Positions 44,883 through 51,745 of a stretch of 64,000 bases of DNA are shown here, piece after piece. The number at the start of each line of letters is the position of its first letter. The stretch's first letter is position 1. The stretch covers positions 1,270,224 to 1,334,223 of the forward strand of contig OZ252110.1 of the NCBI GenBank assembly GCA_965248545.1, written 5' to 3'. Source of the DNA: Alteromonadaceae bacterium. GTDB taxonomy: Bacteria; Pseudomonadota; Gammaproteobacteria; Enterobacterales; Alteromonadaceae. The position numbers and the translations under genes are program-made. The notes beneath the pieces are model-generated. The model had not been told where the DNA came from. It searched no databases and saw only the letters and a program-made list of their open reading frames with translations.

Positions 44883-45020
44883 TCAATCCCCTTTTTGCTG
44901 GAGTTTGAGCGCCTCTAACTCCAATATTTTCATTGATTTTTTGTGATTCAAGTACAGTACAAACATCACAAAAATAGCCGCTACTACTAACCCGAAACTT
45001 AAAAAACCCCACAATGTCAT
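44883..45020 (-). CDS. Unannotated 45-aa single-pass membrane protein
   Basis: Read manually: AGGAGAGCGAC-ATG, then MTLWGFLSFGLVVAAIFVMFVLYLNHKKSMKILELEALKLQQKGD*. Starts 22 bp after the acyltransferase stop on the same strand. Below the 60-aa cutoff of the ORF track. Confidence 0.75.
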   Translation of the reverse strand: MTLWGFLSFGLVVAAIFVMFVLYLNHKKSMKILELEALKLQQKGD

Positions 45021-45042: not shown

Positions 45043-46269
45043 TTACCGAGTCAAATGTGCATCGGATTTACTCTCCAACGTCCACACATGAGGCTTACGC
45101 TTTCCATTAAGCGTAGCACCGATAAATGATGTTCGAACAAAGGCTTCATACAACGCGATTGATATAACCACCGTGATAATACAAATGCTGGAAAGCTTGA
45201 CCAACCAATGTAATGGCAATTCAGCAAATACAACTTGTAACCCTACCACTATTGGCAGATGAATTAGATACAACCAGTAAGAAGCATCCGCCACATAGCG
45301 CACCCACTTTGAAGCCCTTGAAAACAATCTGCTGCAGACACCCAGACTCACAACCACCATTGACCACATCATTACCGCGTAGGCTACAGTAAAAGCGAGT
45401 TTAATTTCGGCAAAATACATATGTCCGGGCTGACTTTCATACGGCGACAGCAGTACACAAATCAATGCCGCCACACATGCCAAGATCCCACGCCCCCAAC
45501 TGAGCTTACCCCAACGCTGGATCAGAGTCCCTTGTCTCTGTAAACACCAACCAAACACAAAGCAACCAGCATAAAGAGCGGTCACCGGTAGGTGTGGCCA
45601 CAGAGACTGATCGGGCGTATCGACTCCCCACCGCTGCATAAACCAAAGACATAGAATGGTCGGTAGCGCTATGACAAAAAGACCCATTGGACTTGAACAC
45701 AACCATGCAATCAAACTGTCGCTGGCACGTTTAAAAGTGTCGGCTACACTCGGTAACAACCCAATCGCATTGCGCAATAAAACAACCGCCAACGTGATAA
45801 AGAAGAGGTAATACAAAAACCATAAGTGAGTGCCCACAAACAAGTTACTCGGCAAATCACCTAATGACGCAAAGCCTTCCTTGAACGCTAACAGCCATTG
45901 TGCATCGCCGCGCATACTTTGCATACCTGCGATCCAGCCGGCCACCAGCAAGGGGCGCAGAACGAACCAACCGACGACAAAGGGTAATCCTATTCTGAAG
46001 ACGCGAGATTTTAGGAAACCCTGCCACCCGAGTCGGTGATAGGTCATATGGCTAAAAAAGCCCGCAATCAGGAAAAATAGTTCCATCCGAAATGAGTGAC
46101 TTATCATACCGAAGACGGCAACGGCTTGGCTGGTTGAAATGTCCATTACGGCCCAGCCAATAAAAATCGGCATGAACGATAAACTGGCATGAAAGACGAT
46201 ACCCAACAGCAGGGCAAAAGCTCGCACAGCATCTAGGTAATCCAGTCTTGGTTGAGATAGCGTAGTCAT
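45043..46269 (-). CDS. Acyltransferase family 3 (OpgC/MdoC-like) membrane protein
   Basis: RLDYLDAVRAFALLLGIVFHA, HSFRMELFFLIAGFF, THLWFLYYL, DASYWLYLIHLP. Confidence 0.9.
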   Translation of the reverse strand: MTTLSQPRLDYLDAVRAFALLLGIVFHASLSFMPIFIGWAVMDISTSQAVAVFGMISHSFRMELFFLIAGFFSHMTYHRLGWQGFLKSRVFRIGLPFVVGWFVLRPLLVAGWIAGMQSMRGDAQWLLAFKEGFASLGDLPSNLFVGTHLWFLYYLFFITLAVVLLRNAIGLLPSVADTFKRASDSLIAWLCSSPMGLFVIALPTILCLWFMQRWGVDTPDQSLWPHLPVTALYAGCFVFGWCLQRQGTLIQRWGKLSWGRGILACVAALICVLLSPYESQPGHMYFAEIKLAFTVAYAVMMWSMVVVSLGVCSRLFSRASKWVRYVADASYWLYLIHLPIVVGLQVVFAELPLHWLVKLSSICIITVVISIALYEAFVRTSFIGATLNGKRKPHVWTLESKSDAHLTR

Positions 46270-46341
46270 GTTTGTCACCCAATCATTTTAATTTGCATAG
46301 ATAACGCGAGCGTTGTTGCTCGCGCAGTGCTGTGTGCTCAA

Positions 46342-46941
46342 TTAATAAAAACTGACTTCGTCTAATTCAAAATCGAATTCACCTGGCTGCAGTCCGAAAG
46401 CCACAATACTCAAACTATTAACCGTCTTGGGATTCAATGCAGTCTGTTCTGACCACATGCGTTTCATAGAATCGAAAGGTACCTTAACTTCGTGAAATTC
46501 ACCGTCGCTGCGTAAGACAACTTGTGCTGCGTGGTAATCAAAATTGGTTACTTCATTGCTGTTTGCTGACAATGACAAACTACCGCTATTCAGTTTTACC
46601 AGTAAGCGCACGCCTTGGTACTCGCTTAAATCCGGCGCTTCACCCATAGGTGCAAGTGGCAGAACCGAACTAGCCCAACCAGGTTGACCACGAGGAGGGG
46701 TTATCTTACCGGTTACATGCATAACACCACTGTGGACTTTCGTTTCAGATTGGGAGCCGCCACCCGCCATAGCATCAGTCATAAAAATGCGGTCAAACCC
46801 ATAACTGTTCTGTGTAGCGCTATCAAACGCATCCACAACTGCAGTTCCAGCAAACGCAGTTGATACCAGTGCGCTAGAAATTAGCACAGCTGTGCTGACG
46901 GTTTTCATCGTGTGACACAATTTTGTGAATGTCGTTTTCAT
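46342..46941 (-). CDS. Exported CIA30-family (carbohydrate-binding-module-like) protein
   Basis: Signal peptide from ATG 46941, MTDAMAGGGS, GWASS, DLSEYQGVRL, VKVPFDSM, FELDEV. Confidence 0.8.
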   Translation of the reverse strand: MKTTFTKLCHTMKTVSTAVLISSALVSTAFAGTAVVDAFDSATQNSYGFDRIFMTDAMAGGGSQSETKVHSGVMHVTGKITPPRGQPGWASSVLPLAPMGEAPDLSEYQGVRLLVKLNSGSLSLSANSNEVTNFDYHAAQVVLRSDGEFHEVKVPFDSMKRMWSEQTALNPKTVNSLSIVAFGLQPGEFDFELDEVSFY

Positions 46942-47025
46942 CTTTTGTATTCCTCTTGTTGCATAACGTTGTTTAATGAGTCGAAAGCGACGCAGTGCGC
47001 TTTTTTTCGCTTCGTTGCTATACAA

Positions 47026-47055
47026 GTGCCAAGGTCAAATCTAAAGGTGACAAAT
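47026..47055 (-). promoter_or_regulatory. Candidate ECF sigma promoter of the CIA30 operon
   Basis: Minus strand ATT-TGTCAC-CTTTAGATTTGACCTT(16 nt)-GGCAC; twin of 48885-48914. Confidence 0.65.
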
Positions 47056-47156: not shown

Positions 47157-47507
47157 ATGAACGATTACGTACTTTTATACCAAGGTGGAGATCCTGATTG
47201 GGCTGCAAATACCTCTCCTGAAGAGATGCAAGCCTCTATGGCGAAATGGGAGGAATGGATGACTCAATTGAGCGCTCAAGGTAAGTTAGTATCCGGTGGT
47301 GACCCATTGCATTATGCCGGCAAGCGAGTCACCGCTGATGGTGTCGCAACCGACATTGCTGCATCAGAACTGAAAGAACTTGTCAGTGGCTATTCCATCG
47401 TTAAAACCGCGACTTTAGAAGACGCTGTGGAGATTGCAAAAACATGTCCCATTATGGATTACCCCGATATCGTGGTTGAGGTTAGACAAGTTTTCAGGAT
47501 GGATTAA
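47157..47507 (+). CDS. YciI/DGPF-family protein
   Basis: YVLLY, GKLVSGGDPL, KELVSGYSIV, LEDAVEIAKTCP, VEVRQV. GAGGA precedes the ATG. Confidence 0.85.
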   Translation: MNDYVLLYQGGDPDWAANTSPEEMQASMAKWEEWMTQLSAQGKLVSGGDPLHYAGKRVTADGVATDIAASELKELVSGYSIVKTATLEDAVEIAKTCPIMDYPDIVVEVRQVFRMD

Positions 47508-48764
47508 TCACACCTTTATCTGCCGAACTAAAGTGTTGAAATCCAGCTGTGGCAGGCCTGCCTGCCTAGCTTTATCAGCATATGCGAGGGCAGTTTCACG
47601 CTGCCCTCGCTTCCAATTGATGTAAGCCAAGGTTGCAAAGTAATGCCCTTTTATTGCGTCATATTCGATGAATTCATTTTCGTCGAGTAATGCCAATGCG
47701 TCCCGTACGTCACCCATTTCCGTCATTGCAACTGCCGCGCTTAAAAGATTTAGCGCTGAGGGATTAATGTTCAATAGCACCTTATAGTGCTGCACGATGG
47801 TCTGCCATTGGGTTTGCGCAAACTCTGTGGCTCGGCAGTGCTCAAAGGCAATTAACGCTTCCAATAAATAAACCGATGGCGTGCTATTCGCGCTGTCCAG
47901 CGCTCTTTGTAACAATGACATACCCAGTTTTAAATGAGGTGCCAGCCAAGTGCTTCGGTCTTGCTCCATCAAAGTCAGTGGCAAGCCCCTGATATCAAAA
48001 CGACTCGGTAAGCGGGCGTAGTGCAAGTGCATCAACGCTGTAAGAGAAAGTGACTCAGCATTGCGAAAGCGCGGCTCACTAATGATTAAGCGCATAAAGC
48101 CTAGCGCAGATGCGCAGATATCATTTCGACTCGCCGGATTCGGATTGTGTGCACTTATCCCCTCATTAAACAGCAGATATAGACATTGATGGACTCGGTC
48201 CAGAGCGGCGGGCAATTCGTCGTCACATGGAATCTCGAATTGCACCTCAACGAGTTGCCGTTTTGCTCGTGATAAACGCTTTTTTATGGTCTCAGGCTTA
48301 GACAACAAGGCTCGTGCGATAGCATCGACATTCATGCCACACAAGATCTTAAGTGCTAGAGGCAAACGTTGCGCGGCAGACAGCTCAGTACTGCTTAACC
48401 AAAACAAAAGTCGCAGTTGGTCGTCTTGTACCAGTTGTTCGGAAAAAGCCGACTCCATCGCATGTGACAATGTCCATTCACTTTGCAATGTGGGTAAGAC
48501 GGCGTGATTCAAAATGTGCTGGCGTTTATTGTGTTGCCGCAAGTGATCGATTGCCGCGCGTTTTGCCGTGAGTTTCAGCCATGCCGCAGGGGCTTCTGGT
48601 AAACCATCTGCTTCCCAGTGCTGTAGCGCTTTACTAAATGCTTCTTGAACAAGATCTTCTGCGAGGGCTAGATTGGACGGCCCCAGTACGCGCAGCAAAG
48701 TAGCAAGAACTTTACTCGCCTCCTGCTGATACAAGTCATTAATTGTGTCTTGGATGCTAAGCAT
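47508..48764 (-). CDS. ECF sigma factor with C-terminal DUF6596/TPR extension (ECF42-like)
   Basis: LAEDLVQEAF..AL..W, sigma-4 region ETIKKRLSRAK, VHQCLYLLFNEG, YLLEALIAFEH, TPR-like end. AGGTG precedes ATG 48764. Confidence 0.85.
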   Translation of the reverse strand: MLSIQDTINDLYQQEASKVLATLLRVLGPSNLALAEDLVQEAFSKALQHWEADGLPEAPAAWLKLTAKRAAIDHLRQHNKRQHILNHAVLPTLQSEWTLSHAMESAFSEQLVQDDQLRLLFWLSSTELSAAQRLPLALKILCGMNVDAIARALLSKPETIKKRLSRAKRQLVEVQFEIPCDDELPAALDRVHQCLYLLFNEGISAHNPNPASRNDICASALGFMRLIISEPRFRNAESLSLTALMHLHYARLPSRFDIRGLPLTLMEQDRSTWLAPHLKLGMSLLQRALDSANSTPSVYLLEALIAFEHCRATEFAQTQWQTIVQHYKVLLNINPSALNLLSAAVAMTEMGDVRDALALLDENEFIEYDAIKGHYFATLAYINWKRGQRETALAYADKARQAGLPQLDFNTLVRQIKV

Positions 48765-48884
48765 ACACCTGCTGACGTTCACAAATATTCAGTGCGTTTC
48801 GCTATCCTATCAGCTATTTCACCGTCATATCAGCATAAGATGTGCAGTCGAGTTGGGCATGCAACGCAAAAATAAATTAACTAT

Positions 48885-48914
48885 ATTTGTCACCTTTATT
48901 GGCAAATGCGGCAC
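48885..48914 (+). promoter_or_regulatory. Candidate autoregulated ECF promoter
   Basis: ATT-TGTCAC-CTTTATTGGCAAATGC(16 nt)-GGCAC, 30 bp before ATG 48945; twin of 47026-47055. Confidence 0.65.
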
Positions 48915-48944
48915 ATACTGTTAAACGATCATAGAGTGAAAACC

Positions 48945-50558
48945 ATGAACCTATTTTCTAAAGCCGGCTCCGACATCGATGACGCTACACTGGTGATGCA
49001 CTCACTCGGCGGGGATCGTGACGCATTTTGTGAAATCGTCACTCGTTACCAAACCTTGTTGTGCTCCATCGCCTACTCCTCAGTGGGCGACATAAAACAC
49101 AGTGAAGACATAGCTCAAGAGGCTTTTGTAGAGGCCTGGCGCAAGCTTGATACACTCAAGGACCCAGCCAAACTCAAATCGTGGCTATGCGGGATTTTGC
49201 GCTTTAAGGTCAGTCGTTTTAGGCGCAAAGAGGTCGGCCAGCCCGCTTCCGATCTCAATGACGTACAAGAGCAGACGTTAGCAGACCACGCCGCTCCCAA
49301 CATGGATCAAAGTGCGATTGAACAGCAGCAACAAGTCCTATTGTGGAAAGCACTCGATGGCATGGATGCAACCTATCGAGAACCTTTAGTATTGTTTTAC
49401 CGTGAGCAGCGCTCTATCGAGCGAGTCGCAGCAGAGCTTGAACTTACCGAAGATACGGTAAAACAGCGATTGTCTCGAGGTCGGAAGCTGCTAAAACAAG
49501 CGATGAGTGTCTTTGTGGAAGATGCACTTGAGAAAACTAAACCAGGTGTTGCATTCACTACGGGCGTGTTGGCAGCGATTAGCTCAATTTCCCCACCGGC
49601 AAAAGCCGCAGTTCTAGGCGCAGGCGCAGCCAAAACCAGTAGTATGTTCAGTGGCGCCACAATCATTGCGATACTAGCCTCGACTTCTGGTTTAATTAGC
49701 GGTTTTTTCGGACTGCGCTCAAGCCTAGATCAATCCAGAACTGAGCAAGAACGTCAATTAACGAAAAAAGTTGTCGCTCTGTTTATCCTGTCCGCTGTGT
49801 TATTTGTTGGCGGCGTTTTCGGACTGCGGCAATTGGCGCTCTTGCATCAAGAGCAAACGTGGCTTTACGCTTTAGGTGCTCAAATTGTGGTAGCCGGTTT
49901 CATAGTGAGCTACTTCGTACTGGTCTCGCGCGCCTTTGGCGCCATCAAAAATCAACGCGCACACGAACGAATTTTCAATCCCGATGCGTTTAAAGCAGAA
50001 GTCGATCAAGTAAATGCCAAACAACGCGAGTACAAAAGTGCGTTCCAGTTATTTGGTGTTCCGCTTGTTCATTTTCAATTTGGCATGCCCGAGGTGACCG
50101 ACAAGCCCGCGTTCGGTTGGATTGCCGGAGGTACATACGCAAGAGGATTATTATTCGCGTGGGGCGGTGTGGCAATCGCGCCTGTGAGTGTGGGTATTAT
50201 TTCCTATGGAATATTCACTATCGGCGCTGTTGGGATCGGCATTTTTAGTGCAAGCGCTGTGGCAGTCGGGATCGTCGGCTTCGGCAGCGCTGCAATTGGA
50301 TATAAGGCTTATTCTTCTCTGTCTTCACTGGGTTGGGAGAGTGCCTTTAGCAATGGTTTTTCAATCGCCAAAGACGCGGCTATTGGGCCGATTGCCTTTG
50401 CACAAGAAGTCAATAATGAAGCAGCCGCACAATTGTCCAACCTGACCACATTGGATAATGTCTATCAATGGGTGCTCGCAACCATCGCGATACTTGTTAT
50501 TATTCCGTCAATCTGGCATTCAACTAAGGTTCGCAAACGCATGAAGCTTGACAAATAG
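48945..50558 (+). CDS. ECF sigma factor fused to a multi-pass, Gly-rich membrane extension
   Basis: Sigma-2 SEDIAQEAFVEAW...SWLCGILR and sigma-4 YREPLVLFY...TVKQRLSRGR, then at least 4-5 hydrophobic segments and REYKS..LFGVPLVH plus Gly-rich repeats. Confidence 0.85.
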   Translation: MNLFSKAGSDIDDATLVMHSLGGDRDAFCEIVTRYQTLLCSIAYSSVGDIKHSEDIAQEAFVEAWRKLDTLKDPAKLKSWLCGILRFKVSRFRRKEVGQPASDLNDVQEQTLADHAAPNMDQSAIEQQQQVLLWKALDGMDATYREPLVLFYREQRSIERVAAELELTEDTVKQRLSRGRKLLKQAMSVFVEDALEKTKPGVAFTTGVLAAISSISPPAKAAVLGAGAAKTSSMFSGATIIAILASTSGLISGFFGLRSSLDQSRTEQERQLTKKVVALFILSAVLFVGGVFGLRQLALLHQEQTWLYALGAQIVVAGFIVSYFVLVSRAFGAIKNQRAHERIFNPDAFKAEVDQVNAKQREYKSAFQLFGVPLVHFQFGMPEVTDKPAFGWIAGGTYARGLLFAWGGVAIAPVSVGIISYGIFTIGAVGIGIFSASAVAVGIVGFGSAAIGYKAYSSLSSLGWESAFSNGFSIAKDAAIGPIAFAQEVNNEAAAQLSNLTTLDNVYQWVLATIAILVIIPSIWHSTKVRKRMKLDK

Positions 50559-51745
50559 TGCCGCAACTCACATACAAGGAATGCTGTTTACCGATGCTAT
50601 CTCAGCCGCAAAACATTGAAGATTTAACGACCCCGTGCTGCCTCATTGATAAGGCAAAAATGCAACGCAATATCGCTCGCCTCGCTGAGCACACAGGCCG
50701 CTTGGGCTGCAAAATCAGGCCGCATGTCAAAACGCATAAATCTATCGAAGTGGCGAAATGCATTGAAGCGGGCGGCAATGTAGCAGGGATCACCGTATCG
50801 ACACTGCAAGAAGCGCAACACTTTTTTGCTCACGGTTATCACGACATCCTGTACGCTGTCGGGATCGTACCGAACAAACTGTCGACGGTTGCCAATCTGA
50901 TTGAACAAGGCTGTGACCTCAAAATTGTGTTGGATAATCCAGCCATGGCGCAATTAGTAGTGGCCAAAGCAAACCAGTTTAGTTGTCGCTTCAAGGTACT
51001 AATCGAACTCGACACCGATGGGCATCGCTCTGGTATCGAGCCGCGCAGTCAGGCGTTACTAGACGTTGCGGAGCAATTGGCAAAAGCGCCCAACATCGAG
51101 TTACTCGGTGTCATGACTCACGCTGGTGAGTCGTATACCTGCTTCACGTCAGATGCTCAACTCAAAATGGCAAAACAAGAGCGCGACCTTTCTTTGCTCG
51201 CAGCTGAGCGGTTGCGCGCCGCGGGTTACCCATGCCCAGTGGTATCGATAGGCTCTACACCAACCGCCTTTGCGATAGATGACCTAACCGGAATAACGGA
51301 AGTGCGTGCCGGCGTTTATGTGTTTTTCGACTTAGTGATGGCTGGGTTAGGTGTTTGTAACGCGGCCGATGTCGCTATCAGTGTGCTCGCCAGTGTCATT
51401 GGTTATCAAGAAGATAAGAATTGGGTCATTACCGACGCAGGTTGGATGGCTATGTCTCGCGATCGCGGAACATCGAATCACTCTGTCGACCAAGGCTATG
51501 GTCTAGTTTGCGACGCCAGTGGTAAATCGTTGGATACCTACATCGTCAGTAGTGCCAACCAAGAACACGGTATTATTGCCAACAGAGAAACCAAACAGGA
51601 CACAGACTATTCTCTGTTTCCACTGGCTTCTCACATACGTGTTTTACCCAATCACGCGTGTTCAACGGCAGCGCAATTTAGCCATCTATATATCATTGAA
51701 GATGGTAAAGTTGTCGACCAATGGCCGTTGACCCGCGGTTGGTAA
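50558..51745 (+). CDS. Fold-type III PLP enzyme, DSD1-type D-serine dehydratase / D-threonine aldolase family
   Basis: TPCCLID, RPHVKTHK (PLP Lys), GVMTHAG, SIGSTPT, EVRAGVYVFFD, NQEHG, PNHAC metal site. Start overlaps the ECF stop; 50591 is an alternative start. Confidence 0.9.
   Translation: MPQLTYKECCLPMLSQPQNIEDLTTPCCLIDKAKMQRNIARLAEHTGRLGCKIRPHVKTHKSIEVAKCIEAGGNVAGITVSTLQEAQHFFAHGYHDILYAVGIVPNKLSTVANLIEQGCDLKIVLDNPAMAQLVVAKANQFSCRFKVLIELDTDGHRSGIEPRSQALLDVAEQLAKAPNIELLGVMTHAGESYTCFTSDAQLKMAKQERDLSLLAAERLRAAGYPCPVVSIGSTPTAFAIDDLTGITEVRAGVYVFFDLVMAGLGVCNAADVAISVLASVIGYQEDKNWVITDAGWMAMSRDRGTSNHSVDQGYGLVCDASGKSLDTYIVSSANQEHGIIANRETKQDTDYSLFPLASHIRVLPNHACSTAAQFSHLYIIEDGKVVDQWPLTRGW

What the first reader, a model, noticed from the sequence alone, without database searches (positions are those of the whole stretch)
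48945..50558. ECF sigma factor covalently fused to a multi-pass Gly-rich membrane domain
After sigma-4 come a linker (EKTKPGVAFTTGVLAAI), three TM helices, a soluble segment, a long Gly/small-residue hydrophobic repeat region and a final TM. No anti-sigma gene is adjacent. Established: ECFs with TM extensions are described mainly from Actinobacteria and Planctomycetes and are thought to need proteolytic release. Inference: a one-protein sensor/anti-sigma/sigma in a gammaproteobacterium, activated by intramembrane proteolysis.
Basis: partly seen in the sequence, partly recalled or inferred. Interest (0 to 1): 0.7.

Follow-up and report, generated by a model that had tools for sequence, protein, structure and literature searches.

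The report
Membrane-anchored sigma factor with acyltransferase partners
This gene really does encode a stress-type sigma factor built into a large membrane protein, and across several bacterial phyla it sits beside, and probably switches on, two envelope-modifying genes, forming a compact and untested regulatory module.

Summary
Window 48945..50558 (+) is one 537-aa ORF: a complete ECF sigma (regions 2 and 4) continuous with about 340 residues of membrane domain. It is not a frameshift artefact, because more than 1800 proteins share the full-length architecture.

New findings:
- In about 58 of 63 related loci from Gammaproteobacteria, Verrucomicrobiota and Acidobacteriota, the gene lies divergently next to a CIA30-like exported protein and an OpgC-like AT3 acyltransferase.
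- One promoter motif, TGTCACC-N15-GGCAC, precedes both transcription units. In this 4.2-Mb genome, at that spacing, it occurs only at those two sites.
- Some relatives fuse sigma, membrane domain and AT3 into a single 960-aa protein.
- The Gly-rich block is a strict 5-residue repeat. AlphaFold predicts it confidently as beta structure rather than TM helices, and no solved structure resembles it.
- There is no anti-sigma domain. Only about 10 residues separate sigma-4 from the first membrane segment.

Best reading: a membrane-anchored, autoregulated sigma that controls an envelope-glycan acylation operon, is physically coupled to the acyltransferase, and is probably freed by proteolysis. The release step is untested.

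The kind is known (probably ECF Hub group ECF263; IutY is a gammaproteobacterial precedent). The partners, regulon and predicted fold are new.

The parts
48888..48914 (+). ECF-type promoter of the sigma gene: TGTCACCTTTATTGGCAAATGCGGCAC (-35-like TGTCACC, 15-nt spacer, -10-like GGCAC).
   Evidence: 3 window matches to the loose pattern against 0.2 expected; the same motif lies upstream of the sigma gene in 58 of 59 related loci with at most 1 mismatch; with N15 spacing it occurs at only two sites in the 4.2-Mb genome.
48945..50558 (+). Gene for the 537-aa ECF sigma fused to a membrane domain (stop codon included).
49038..49232 (+). Sigma region 2 (residues 32-96). Contains two family-invariant cysteines, C40 and C82.
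   Evidence: Pfam PF04542, E 1.2e-12. Foldseek matches to ECF sigmas. Invariant columns.
49338..49496 (+). Sigma region 4 (residues 132-184).
   Evidence: Pfam PF08281, E 1.3e-10.
49515..49931 (+). Short linker (191-200), weakly hydrophobic uncharged segment TM0 (201-219) with the conserved PGxxFT...PPAKAA motif, then helices TM1-TM3 (about 233-329). The K/R-rich loop LDQSRTxxER (258-273) includes invariant R265, T266 and E269.
   Evidence: Hydropathy. Family-wide charge counts. AF2 helices 237-263, 267-300 and 302-344 at pLDDT 88-97. Invariant columns.
49932..50117 (+). K/R-rich segment inferred to be cytoplasmic (residues 330-391). Carries the conserved EYKS...G.PL.H.F motif with invariant R338, R342, F349, S365, G371, P373 and H376.
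   Evidence: The same motif opens the stand-alone homologues.
50118..50300 (+). Hydrophobic pentapeptide repeat with Gly every fifth residue (residues 392-452). Predicted as long beta strands and inferred to cross the membrane once.
   Evidence: Gly periodicity and autocorrelation peaks at lags 5, 10, 15 and 20. AF2 strands 389-411, 414-436 and 439-469 at pLDDT above 90. No PDB analogue.
50301..50459 (+). Net-acidic segment inferred to be periplasmic (residues 453-505). Carries the conserved LGWESA and A..NNE.A motifs, with invariant G463, A467, A479, N490 and A494.
50460..50555 (+). Final TM helix (506-524) and a strongly basic C-terminal tail, placed in the cytoplasm.
   Evidence: In relative P0264 this tail continues into the N-terminus of AT3, and AT3 N-termini are cytoplasmic (PMC9833829).
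47026..47052 (-). Second copy of the same promoter motif, upstream of the CIA30-AT3 operon: TGTCACCTTTAGATTTGACCTTGGCAC.
   Evidence: The CIA30-side motif is present with at most 1 mismatch in 53 of 59 loci.
46342..46941 (-). Exported CIA30-domain protein of about 199 aa. The likely start is the ATG at 46941, followed by a signal-peptide-like N-terminus.
   Evidence: Pfam PF08547, E 7.7e-11. Sequence read. Orthologue adjacent in 59 loci.
45043..46278 (-). Stand-alone AT3 membrane acyltransferase, OpgC/MdoC-like.
   Evidence: Pfam PF01757, E 3.5e-32. Best NCBIfam match is MdoC at 151 bits, below the 338-bit cutoff. Orthologue adjacent in 57 loci. Fused to the sigma protein in P0264.

Best explanation
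The gene encodes an inner-membrane-anchored ECF sigma factor. It forms a self-contained three-gene module with a divergently transcribed operon for an exported CIA30-like (carbohydrate-binding-type) protein and an OpgC-like AT3 acyltransferase.

Shown here. The sigma domain is intact. One promoter type, TGTCACC-N15-GGCAC, precedes both its own gene and the CIA30-AT3 operon, and this holds across three phyla. The regulon is therefore essentially these two transcription units, with positive autoregulation. The membrane domain and AT3 occur as one polypeptide in some relatives.

Inferred.
- Topology: sigma (in), TM0, TM1, K/R-rich loop (in), TM2, TM3, K/R-rich segment (in), beta-type pentapeptide-Gly module crossing once, acidic segment (out), last TM, basic tail (in).
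- The membrane domain binds the AT3 enzyme in the membrane.
- Because sigma-4 is only about 10 residues from the membrane and no anti-sigma domain exists, the intact protein is held inactive by tethering. It is activated when a protease cuts in the linker or the TM0-TM1 hairpin and frees a fragment of about 200-230 aa.
- The trigger is the state of the AT3/CIA30 envelope-glycan acylation machinery, or of the membrane around it. The module would therefore adjust acylation of a periplasmic or surface glycan.
For: Fusion and family:
- 1862 homologues were found. The top 120 are 493-565 aa (nearly all 520-565) and nearly all cover 96-100% of the query.
- About 63 full-length relatives at 44-66% identity occur in Alteromonadales, Cellvibrionales, Woeseiaceae, Lysobacterales, Opitutales/Limisphaerales and Acidobacteria.

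Module:
- CIA30 and AT3 lie immediately upstream and divergent in about 58 loci.
- They are the only conserved neighbours.

Regulon:
- The motif lies upstream of sigma in 58 of 59 loci and upstream of CIA30 in 53 of 59 loci, each with at most 1 mismatch. The consensus is aaaaa..ttTGTCACCTTT-N-GGCACtTa.
- In the window's own genome only these two sites have the N15 spacing.
- No sigma-70-like promoter lies near either gene.
- Extra exact hits in Neiella are intragenic.

Physical coupling to AT3:
- P0264 (960 aa) is collinear with P0001 over residues 16-541 (35% identity, E 1e-74). It continues into an AT3 domain 35% identical to the window's AT3 (E 4e-42).
- It was seen on four contigs from at least three sequencing runs.
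- P0215 joins the membrane module to AT3.

Topology:
- Family-wide K+R counts are 4.7 in loop 258-273, 10.1 in 330-391 and 5.2 in the C-tail. They are 0.4 in loop 297-306. Segment 453-505 is net acidic.
- AT3 N-termini are cytoplasmic (PMC9833829).
- Stand-alone modules have no signal peptide, a basic N-terminus and a basic C-tail.

No anti-sigma domain.

Action in trans: in a Glaciecola MAG the CIA30-AT3 operon sits on a different contig from the sigma gene and keeps an exact motif.

Precedents:
- IutY is released by Prc and RseP (PMC8999054).
- From general knowledge, sigma-V of B. subtilis controls the AT3 enzyme OatA.
Against: - No experimental or transcript data could be obtained.
- Proteolytic release is pure inference. 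No dedicated protease is conserved nearby. Known site-2 protease substrates are single-pass proteins, whereas this one is multi-pass.
- TM0 is only weakly hydrophobic (mean KD 1.29) and AF2 gives residues 193-235 a pLDDT below 50. The four-helix topology, and therefore the 10-residue tether, rests on charge bias and on the fusion argument.
- A few family members (Catenovulum, one Glaciecola MAG) have no AT3 orthologue in the genome.
- The distant triple fusion lacks both CIA30 and the motif.
- Model coordinates and PAE were not available. Whether sigma docks onto the cytoplasmic loops is therefore unknown.
Confidence: 0.55

Rival explanations
1. The sigma factor works without being released. 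It stays in the membrane, recruits core RNA polymerase there, and acts on promoters held near the membrane by co-translational insertion of its own product and of AT3 (transertion). This would resemble ToxR- or CadC-type membrane-bound activators.
For: - The regulon consists of two promoters that lie within about 200 bp of the sigma gene in most loci, and within 1.8 kb here.
- No anti-sigma domain and no conserved protease gene are present.
- Residues 193-235 are modelled as flexible.
- Sigma-AT3 triple fusions exist, in which a large enzyme is permanently attached.
Against: - If TM0 is real, only about 10 residues separate sigma-4 from the bilayer. That looks sterically incompatible with docking on the beta-flap and binding the -35 element.
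- In one Glaciecola MAG the target operon keeps the motif although it lies on a different contig from the sigma gene. MAG binning makes this evidence weak.
- No membrane-bound active sigma factor is known.
Confidence: 0.2
2. The membrane domain is mainly a working subunit of the acyl-transfer machine, for example a scaffold or conduit next to AT3. The sigma domain is an add-on that reports how much unpartnered subunit exists: free subunits are degraded by quality-control proteases, which liberates sigma and restores stoichiometry.
For: - The membrane module is fused to AT3 in some relatives.
- The beta-repeat module also exists on its own, without sigma, as 190-220-aa proteins.
- Invariant polar residues lie in segments on both sides of the membrane.
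Against: - The stand-alone modules examined sit next to DinB_2 genes, not AT3.
- AT3-only enzymes such as OpgC and Oac are thought to work alone (PMC9558356).
- No catalytic motif could be assigned. H376 is replaced by Cys or Asp in distant homologues.
Confidence: 0.15
3. It is a classical one-protein sigma/anti-sigma hybrid of the IutY or ECF52/53 type. A fused anti-sigma domain would clamp sigma-2 and sigma-4, and a periplasmic sensor domain would start regulated intramembrane proteolysis.
For: The architecture is superficially the same: an ECF core followed by TM segments, with no separate anti-sigma gene. Precedents are described in PMC8999054.
Against: - There is no FecR, zinc-finger or other anti-sigma domain hit.
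- There is no Cys after residue 82.
- The linker is too short for a four-helix anti-sigma domain.
- There is no globular periplasmic domain. The largest outside segment is about 50 residues.
- AF2 does not pack the extension confidently onto sigma (pTM 0.48).
Confidence: 0.08
4. It is a sequencing or assembly frameshift that joins a sigma gene to a membrane-protein gene.
For: None was found.
Against: - The same single ORF occurs in more than 1800 proteins and in complete genomes of many genera.
- C-terminal-domain homologues start at about residue 190-200 of 520-560-aa proteins. The short hits are truncated gene calls that begin inside sigma-4.
Confidence: 0.01

Closest known systems
ECF263 of the ECF Hub classification (Casas-Pastor et al. 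2021, PMC7826278)
   Same: The paper describes it only as an ECF group whose C-terminal extension has five or seven transmembrane helices. Helix-prediction programs would give this protein such a count. No anti-sigma factor is expected for groups with extensions.
   Different: The paper's main text does not mention CIA30 or acyltransferase. It also says nothing of the promoter, the beta-type repeat or the AT3 fusions. No member has been studied experimentally.
IutY of Pseudomonas putida (ECF243 sigma/anti-sigma hybrid; PMC8999054)
   Same: It is a gammaproteobacterial ECF sigma fused at its C-terminus to a membrane-spanning regulator. The sigma is activated by proteolysis (Prc, then RseP), and a truncated sigma is constitutively active.
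   Different: IutY carries a FecR-type anti-sigma domain, one TM helix and a periplasmic domain that talks to a TonB-dependent receptor. The protein here has no anti-sigma domain, is multi-pass with a beta-type repeat, and pairs with an acyltransferase operon.
ECF48, ECF52 and ECF53 of Actinobacteria (e.g. SCO4117; PMC5826349, PMC8999054)
   Same: They are ECF sigmas with C-terminal extensions that contain TM helices, and release by proteolysis is proposed.
   Different: Those carry a zinc-finger (ZAS-like) domain, one or two TM helices and large extracytoplasmic carbohydrate-binding or Pro-rich regions. None of these features is present here.
Sigma-V / RsiV / OatA of Bacillus subtilis and relatives (from general knowledge)
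   Same: An ECF sigma autoregulates and induces an AT3-family envelope acyltransferase encoded in the same locus.
   Different: Sigma-V is soluble and is held by a separate anti-sigma factor, RsiV, which binds lysozyme. OatA is an AT3-SGNH enzyme. Here sigma is itself the membrane protein, AT3 lacks SGNH, and the partner is a CIA30 protein.
OpgC/MdoC, the succinyltransferase of osmoregulated periplasmic glucans (PMC9558356)
   Same: It is the closest curated family to the partner acyltransferase. Both are stand-alone 10-TM AT3 proteins.
   Different: The score of 151 bits is far below the 338-bit equivalog cutoff, so this is not an OpgC orthologue and the acceptor glycan is unknown.
Pentapeptide-repeat (Rfr-fold) and other beta-solenoid proteins
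   Same: There is a strict 5-residue periodicity over about 12 repeats. The only Foldseek hits, which are weak, are to beta-helix proteins.
   Different: There is no Pfam pentapeptide hit. The repeat is hydrophobic and membrane-embedded with an invariant Gly. The Foldseek E-values (0.1 or higher) are not significant, and DSSP shows very long continuous strands.

Membership tests
ECF (group 4) sigma-70 family | Sigma regions 2 and 4 are present, and regions 1.1 and 3 are absent. | tested here: met
   PF04542 at residues 32-96 and PF08281 at 132-183 only. TIGR02937 scores 77.9 bits against a cutoff of 42.9. Foldseek top hits are SigW, AlgU, sigma-E and SigL.
ECF (group 4) sigma-70 family | A cognate bipartite promoter lies upstream of the sigma's own gene (autoregulation). 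| tested here: met
   TGTCACC-N15-GGCAC lies 30 nt upstream of the start codon and is conserved in 58 of 59 loci. Actual use of the promoter was not tested experimentally.
ECF263 (ECF Hub) | C-terminal extension with five or seven TM helices. | tested here: inconclusive
   Hydropathy gives 5-8 hydrophobic segments. AF2 models part of them as beta strands. The published description is a single sentence.
ECF263 (ECF Hub) | The ECF core scores above threshold against the group-specific HMM. | not testable with these tools
   ECF Hub HMMs are not available, and no supplementary files are held.
IutY-type / FecI-FecR hybrids (ECF243) | FecR-type anti-sigma domain plus a periplasmic signalling domain after a single TM helix. 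| tested here: not met
   No FecR or other domain hit in residues 190-537, even at E up to 1. The protein is multi-pass.
ECF48/52/53 (actinobacterial TM-extended ECFs) | Zinc-finger (ZAS-like) anti-sigma domain directly after sigma-4. | tested here: not met
   Residues 190-537 contain no Cys and no HxxxCxxC motif (sequence). No Pfam hit.
Class I anti-sigma domain-containing regulators | A cytoplasmic helical domain of about 70-90 residues that can clamp sigma-2 and sigma-4. | tested here: not met
   Only about 10 charged or polar residues precede the first uncharged hydrophobic segment. No anti-sigma domain profile hit.
OpgC/MdoC (the partner acyltransferase) | Scores above the NCBIfam equivalog cutoff. 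| tested here: not met
   NF003014 scores 150.9 bits against a cutoff of 338. The protein is a member of Pfam Acyl_transf_3 (112 bits against a cutoff of 31).
Pentapeptide-repeat proteins (Pfam Pentapeptide families) | Matches a pentapeptide-repeat profile and has the A(D/N)LXX consensus. | tested here: not met
   Period 5 is clear. There is no Pfam hit at E up to 1, and the consensus is [VIF]-small-[VIY]-G-[IA].

The most novel reading that the evidence does not exclude
The C-terminal module may be a previously undescribed inner-membrane fold: a hydrophobic pentapeptide-Gly beta structure (a solenoid or a long beta-meander) that crosses the cytoplasmic membrane once, next to alpha-helices.

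In this reading the whole protein is a new class of sigma regulator. It would be wired directly, by physical contact or even covalent fusion, to an AT3 transmembrane acyltransferase. Transcription of the envelope-acylation operon would then be set by the occupancy or activity of the enzyme itself, not by a separate anti-sigma sensor. The sigma might even act while still tethered.
Probability: 0.2. Interest if true: 0.85.

Novelty: new variant of a known kind. Interest (0 to 1): 0.62.

Why it matters
ECF sigma factors with fused membrane extensions are catalogued but almost unstudied. How a sigma factor that is itself an integral membrane protein gets switched on is an open question.

This family offers a very clean system for that question:
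- three genes;
- two promoters with an easily recognised motif;
- no other regulon members;
- representatives in culturable Alteromonas, Paraglaciecola, Cellvibrio, Gilvimarinus and Teredinibacter strains.

The link to an AT3 acyltransferase and a CIA30-like exported protein also bears on a second open problem: how AT3-only enzymes find and acylate their extracytoplasmic glycan acceptors, and whether they need partner proteins (PMC9558356).

Finally, a confidently predicted beta-rich segment inside an inner-membrane protein, with no structural analogue in the PDB, would interest structural biologists if it is confirmed.

Tried and rejected
- **ECF Hub group assignment.** The NAR paper and its bioRxiv version hold no supplementary text here, and only one sentence mentions ECF263. 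Membership is left open.
- **Literature on a CIA30 + acyltransferase + ECF module, or on membrane-tethered sigmas.** Nothing specific was found.
- **Profile search of the membrane domain against PDB sequences.** Only a chance hit appeared (E 0.7).
- **Foldseek of the full-length model.** Only the sigma domain matched.
- **Foldseek of the membrane-domain model.** Nothing was significant.
- **Stand-alone versions of the whole membrane domain, as evidence for a split sigma/anti-sigma ancestor.** The 330-410-aa hits are truncated gene calls that start inside sigma-4. Only the C-terminal beta-repeat module exists alone, and it sits next to DinB_2 genes rather than AT3.
- **A Ser-His catalytic idea for S365/H376.** Dropped, because the His is Cys or Asp in distant homologues.
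- **A coil length of 25 for a solenoid.** Profile self-similarity simply decays over lags 5, 10, 15, 20 and 25 with no preferred multiple.
- **Extra regulon members.** The third hit in the window (42791) has N16 spacing. The extra Neiella hits are intragenic.
- **The 45-aa microprotein downstream of AT3.** It has a detectable counterpart only in one Colwellia locus, so it is not part of the conserved module.
Full report
**1. The observation**

The window holds an uninterrupted ORF at 48906..50558 on the + strand.

The real start is the ATG at 48945, giving 537 aa (P0001). Homologues begin at the same alignment column with the same MxxFxK opening. The earlier ATG at 48906 lies inside a conserved promoter element.

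Pfam finds Sigma70_r2 at residues 32-96 and Sigma70_r4_2 at 132-183, and nothing afterwards, even at E up to 1. NCBIfam gives only generic ECF models (TIGR02937, 77.9 bits against a cutoff of 42.9).

Hydropathy shows hydrophobic stretches at about 233-257, 274-296 and 307-329, a long block at 398-452, and 506-524.

**2. Not an artefact; a large, patchy family**

- A search of the 5.8-billion-protein collection returned 1862 hits. The best 120 are 493-565 aa (nearly all 520-565), cover 91-100% of the query (nearly all 96-100%), and are 58-91% identical.
- Species-representative genomes gave about 63 full-length relatives at 44-66% identity. They come from Alteromonadales, Cellvibrionales, Woeseiaceae and Lysobacterales, and also from Verrucomicrobiota (Opitutales, Limisphaerales, Pelagicoccus) and Acidobacteria.
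- A search with the C-terminal 340 residues alone found 756 representatives. Nearly all match from about residue 190-200 of a 520-560-aa protein. The shorter ones begin in the middle of sigma-4 and are truncated gene calls.
- Prevalence is low and patchy. The domain is in 1 of 300 evenly sampled genomes of the class (the window's own genome). It is in 15 of 151 genomes of the window's family (12 of 59 genera, always one copy) and in none of four other species of the same genus.

**3. The neighbourhood is the key**

In Cellvibrio, Neptunicella and Pleionea the gene is preceded, divergently, by a CIA30-domain protein and an Acyl_transf_3 protein.

tblastn with the window's own CIA30 protein (46342-47025, -) and AT3 protein (45043-46278, -; PF01757, E 3.5e-32) finds this pair immediately upstream in about 58 of the full-length loci, across all three phyla.

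All-against-all clustering of the ORFs in 63 loci finds only three conserved genes: the sigma fusion (63 loci), CIA30 (59) and AT3 (57). No protease, anti-sigma or other partner is conserved.

In this window a 1.8-kb insert separates CIA30 from the sigma gene. The insert carries a YCII gene and a second ECF sigma with a DUF6596 extension, an ECF42-type pair.

The AT3 protein is closest to MdoC/OpgC, at 151 bits. That is far below the equivalog cutoff of 338, so the acceptor glycan is unknown.

The gene downstream of sigma (50558-51745, D-serine-dehydratase-like) is not conserved in other loci.

**4. A two-promoter regulon**

An earlier first-stage note (e1-5226135) pointed to TGTCAC...GGCAC elements. 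I tested this.

- The window has TGTCACCTTTATTGGCAAATGCGGCAC at 48888-48914 (+), 30 nt before the start codon. It has TGTCACCTTTAGATTTGACCTTGGCAC at 47026-47052 (-), upstream of CIA30.
- In 59 loci with the divergent arrangement, the motif TGTCACC-N15-GGCAC is present with at most 1 mismatch upstream of sigma in 58 loci, and on the opposite strand upstream of CIA30 in 53 loci. An A/T-rich stretch lies upstream of it.
- In the whole 4.2-Mb genome of this organism, the N15 form occurs only at these two places.
- Additional exact hits in the Neiella genome lie inside genes and are probably chance.
- No sigma-70-type promoter lies near either gene.

This is strong comparative evidence that the sigma domain is functional, autoregulates, and has the CIA30-AT3 operon as essentially its only other target. 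It is not experimental proof.

**5. Direct link to the acyltransferase**

Among the distant homologues, P0264 (960 aa) is collinear with P0001 over its first 541 residues (35% identity, E 1e-74). After a linker of about 30 residues it continues into an AT3 domain that is 35% identical, end to end, to the window's AT3 (E 4e-42). It is found on four contigs from at least three sequencing runs.

P0215 joins the membrane module to AT3.

Such fusions argue that the two proteins act together, probably as a complex.

They also fix the topology. AT3 N-termini are cytoplasmic (Oac and OafB, cited in PMC9833829), so the basic C-terminal tail of the sigma protein is cytoplasmic.

**6. Anatomy of the extension**

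*Charges.* Family-wide charge counts put three regions inside the cell:
- loop 258-273 (4.7 K+R);
- segment 330-391 (10.1 K+R);
- the C-tail (5.2 K+R).

Two regions fall outside: loop 297-306 and the net-acidic segment 453-505.

*A fourth membrane segment.* The sigma domain must also be inside. That requires an even number of crossings before residue 258. The uncharged, weakly hydrophobic stretch 201-219, part of the conserved PGxxFT...PPAKAA motif, is the candidate fourth segment (TM0). If so, only about 10 residues connect sigma-4 to the membrane. AF2 is unsure about residues 193-235 (pLDDT below 50), so this step is inferred.

*The Gly-rich block.* It is a strict pentapeptide repeat. Gly is 93-100% conserved at positions 417, 422, 427, 432, 437, 442 and 447, falling to 67% at 452. 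Gly is also invariant at 396, 401 and 407. Autocorrelation peaks fall at lags 5, 10, 15 and 20.

*Structure prediction.* AlphaFold2 on the membrane domain alone (58-sequence alignment) gives mean pLDDT 92.4 and pTM 0.86. It predicts:
- three long helices (237-263, 267-300, 302-344);
- long beta strands covering 389-469;
- a final helix (500-533).

The full-length run also predicted strands in the first part of this block, about 389-445.

Foldseek against the PDB finds nothing significant. The best hit has E 0.11, and the weak hits are beta-helix proteins. A profile search of PDB sequences finds nothing either. I had no access to coordinates or PAE, so I cannot say whether the model is a solenoid or a three-stranded meander.

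*Stand-alone modules.* Proteins of 190-220 aa exist that consist only of the YxSR..LGLPL motif, the repeat, the A.ANxxxA motif and the last TM helix. They have no signal peptide and carry basic ends. This fits a module that crosses the membrane once.

*Other features.* There is no anti-sigma domain of any known type and no cysteine after residue 82. Two cysteines in sigma-2 (C40, C82) are invariant in the family.

**7. Mechanism**

*Shown by comparative data:* a membrane-anchored ECF sigma, a conserved three-gene module, a shared promoter, and coupling to AT3.

*Inferred:*
- The intact protein is inactive because sigma-4 is pinned to the membrane.
- A cut in the linker or the TM0-TM1 hairpin frees the sigma.
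- The trigger reflects the state of the AT3/CIA30 machinery or the surrounding envelope.

*Precedents:* IutY of P. putida, a fused sigma/anti-sigma released by Prc and RseP (PMC8999054). From general knowledge, sigma-V induces the AT3 enzyme OatA.

*One observation that favours a diffusible sigma.* In a Glaciecola MAG the AT3 operon keeps an exact motif although it lies on a different contig from the sigma gene. This is weak because of MAG binning.

*Main rival.* The sigma may be active while tethered, working on promoters next to its own gene. The data do not exclude this. The near-universal cis arrangement would suit it.

**8. Comparison with what is known**

ECFs with membrane extensions are a known kind. 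[quoted passage not shown] This family probably corresponds to it, but I could not test that.

It differs from IutY and from ECF48/52/53 in three ways:
- it lacks any anti-sigma or zinc-finger domain;
- it is multi-pass with a beta-type repeat;
- it has AT3 and CIA30 as partners.

I found no paper on this module. I therefore rate it a new variant of a known kind, of moderate to high interest.

**9. Limits**

- ECF Hub models were not available.
- Proteolysis, topology and the AT3 interaction are untested inferences.

Noticed in passing
window 47157-48782: An ECF42-type pair is inserted between the CIA30 gene and the fused sigma gene. It consists of a YCII-domain protein (47157-47507, +) and an ECF sigma with a DUF6596 C-terminal extension (47508-48782, -). 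The other related loci lack this insert, so two ECF sigmas with regulatory extensions sit side by side here.
   Followed up: partly
P0001 residues 40 and 82 (window 49062-49064 and 49188-49190): Two cysteines in sigma region 2, in the LLCS and WLCGILRFK contexts, are invariant across the 64-sequence family alignment. The rest of the protein has no cysteine. A redox or metal role was not examined.
   Followed up: no
L090 5001-7883 (also L091, L092): A natural 960-aa triple fusion of ECF sigma, membrane domain and AT3 acyltransferase. It is seen on four contigs from at least three sequencing runs. Here it is divergent from a Peptidase_M43 gene and a TonB-dependent receptor gene instead of CIA30, and it lacks the TGTCACC motif.
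   Followed up: partly
L087 1069-1641 (also L088, L089): Stand-alone 190-aa proteins consist only of the pentapeptide-Gly repeat module plus the last TM helix. In three contigs they lie directly downstream of a DinB_2 gene and upstream of an unannotated protein of about 750 aa.
   Followed up: no
L068 3995-5350: Kofleriaceae relatives share the sigma core and the PGxGFTxGVM linker motif. They continue into a single TM helix and an unrelated extracytoplasmic domain of about 200 aa. The linker motif therefore marks a wider clade of membrane-fused ECFs.
   Followed up: no
window 44883-45020 (-): A 45-aa ORF with one TM helix lies just downstream of the AT3 gene (noted by another first-stage reader). 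A detectable counterpart exists only in one Colwellia locus (L005, E 1.5e-4), so it is not part of the conserved module.
   Followed up: partly
window 50558-51745 (+): A D-serine-dehydratase-like / alanine-racemase-N-domain gene follows the sigma gene. Its GTG start overlaps the sigma stop codon, and an ATG lies 36 nt further on. No terminator-like site lies between the two genes. The neighbour is not conserved in related loci, so any co-transcription here is probably incidental.
   Followed up: partly
window 46955-47025 (-): The 5' leader of about 85 nt between the CIA30 promoter and its ATG contains an imperfect inverted repeat (CGAAGCGAAAAAAAGCGCACTGCGTCGCTTTCG). The scan on the opposite strand also picks it up as terminator-like. 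Its role, if any, is unknown.
   Followed up: no
L031 and L039 (genomes G450, G454): Catenovulum sp. 2E275 and one Glaciecola MAG carry a fused sigma of this family but have no AT3 orthologue at E up to 1e-30 anywhere in the genome. The Catenovulum locus also lacks the promoter motif. These may be orphaned or re-wired copies.
   Followed up: partly
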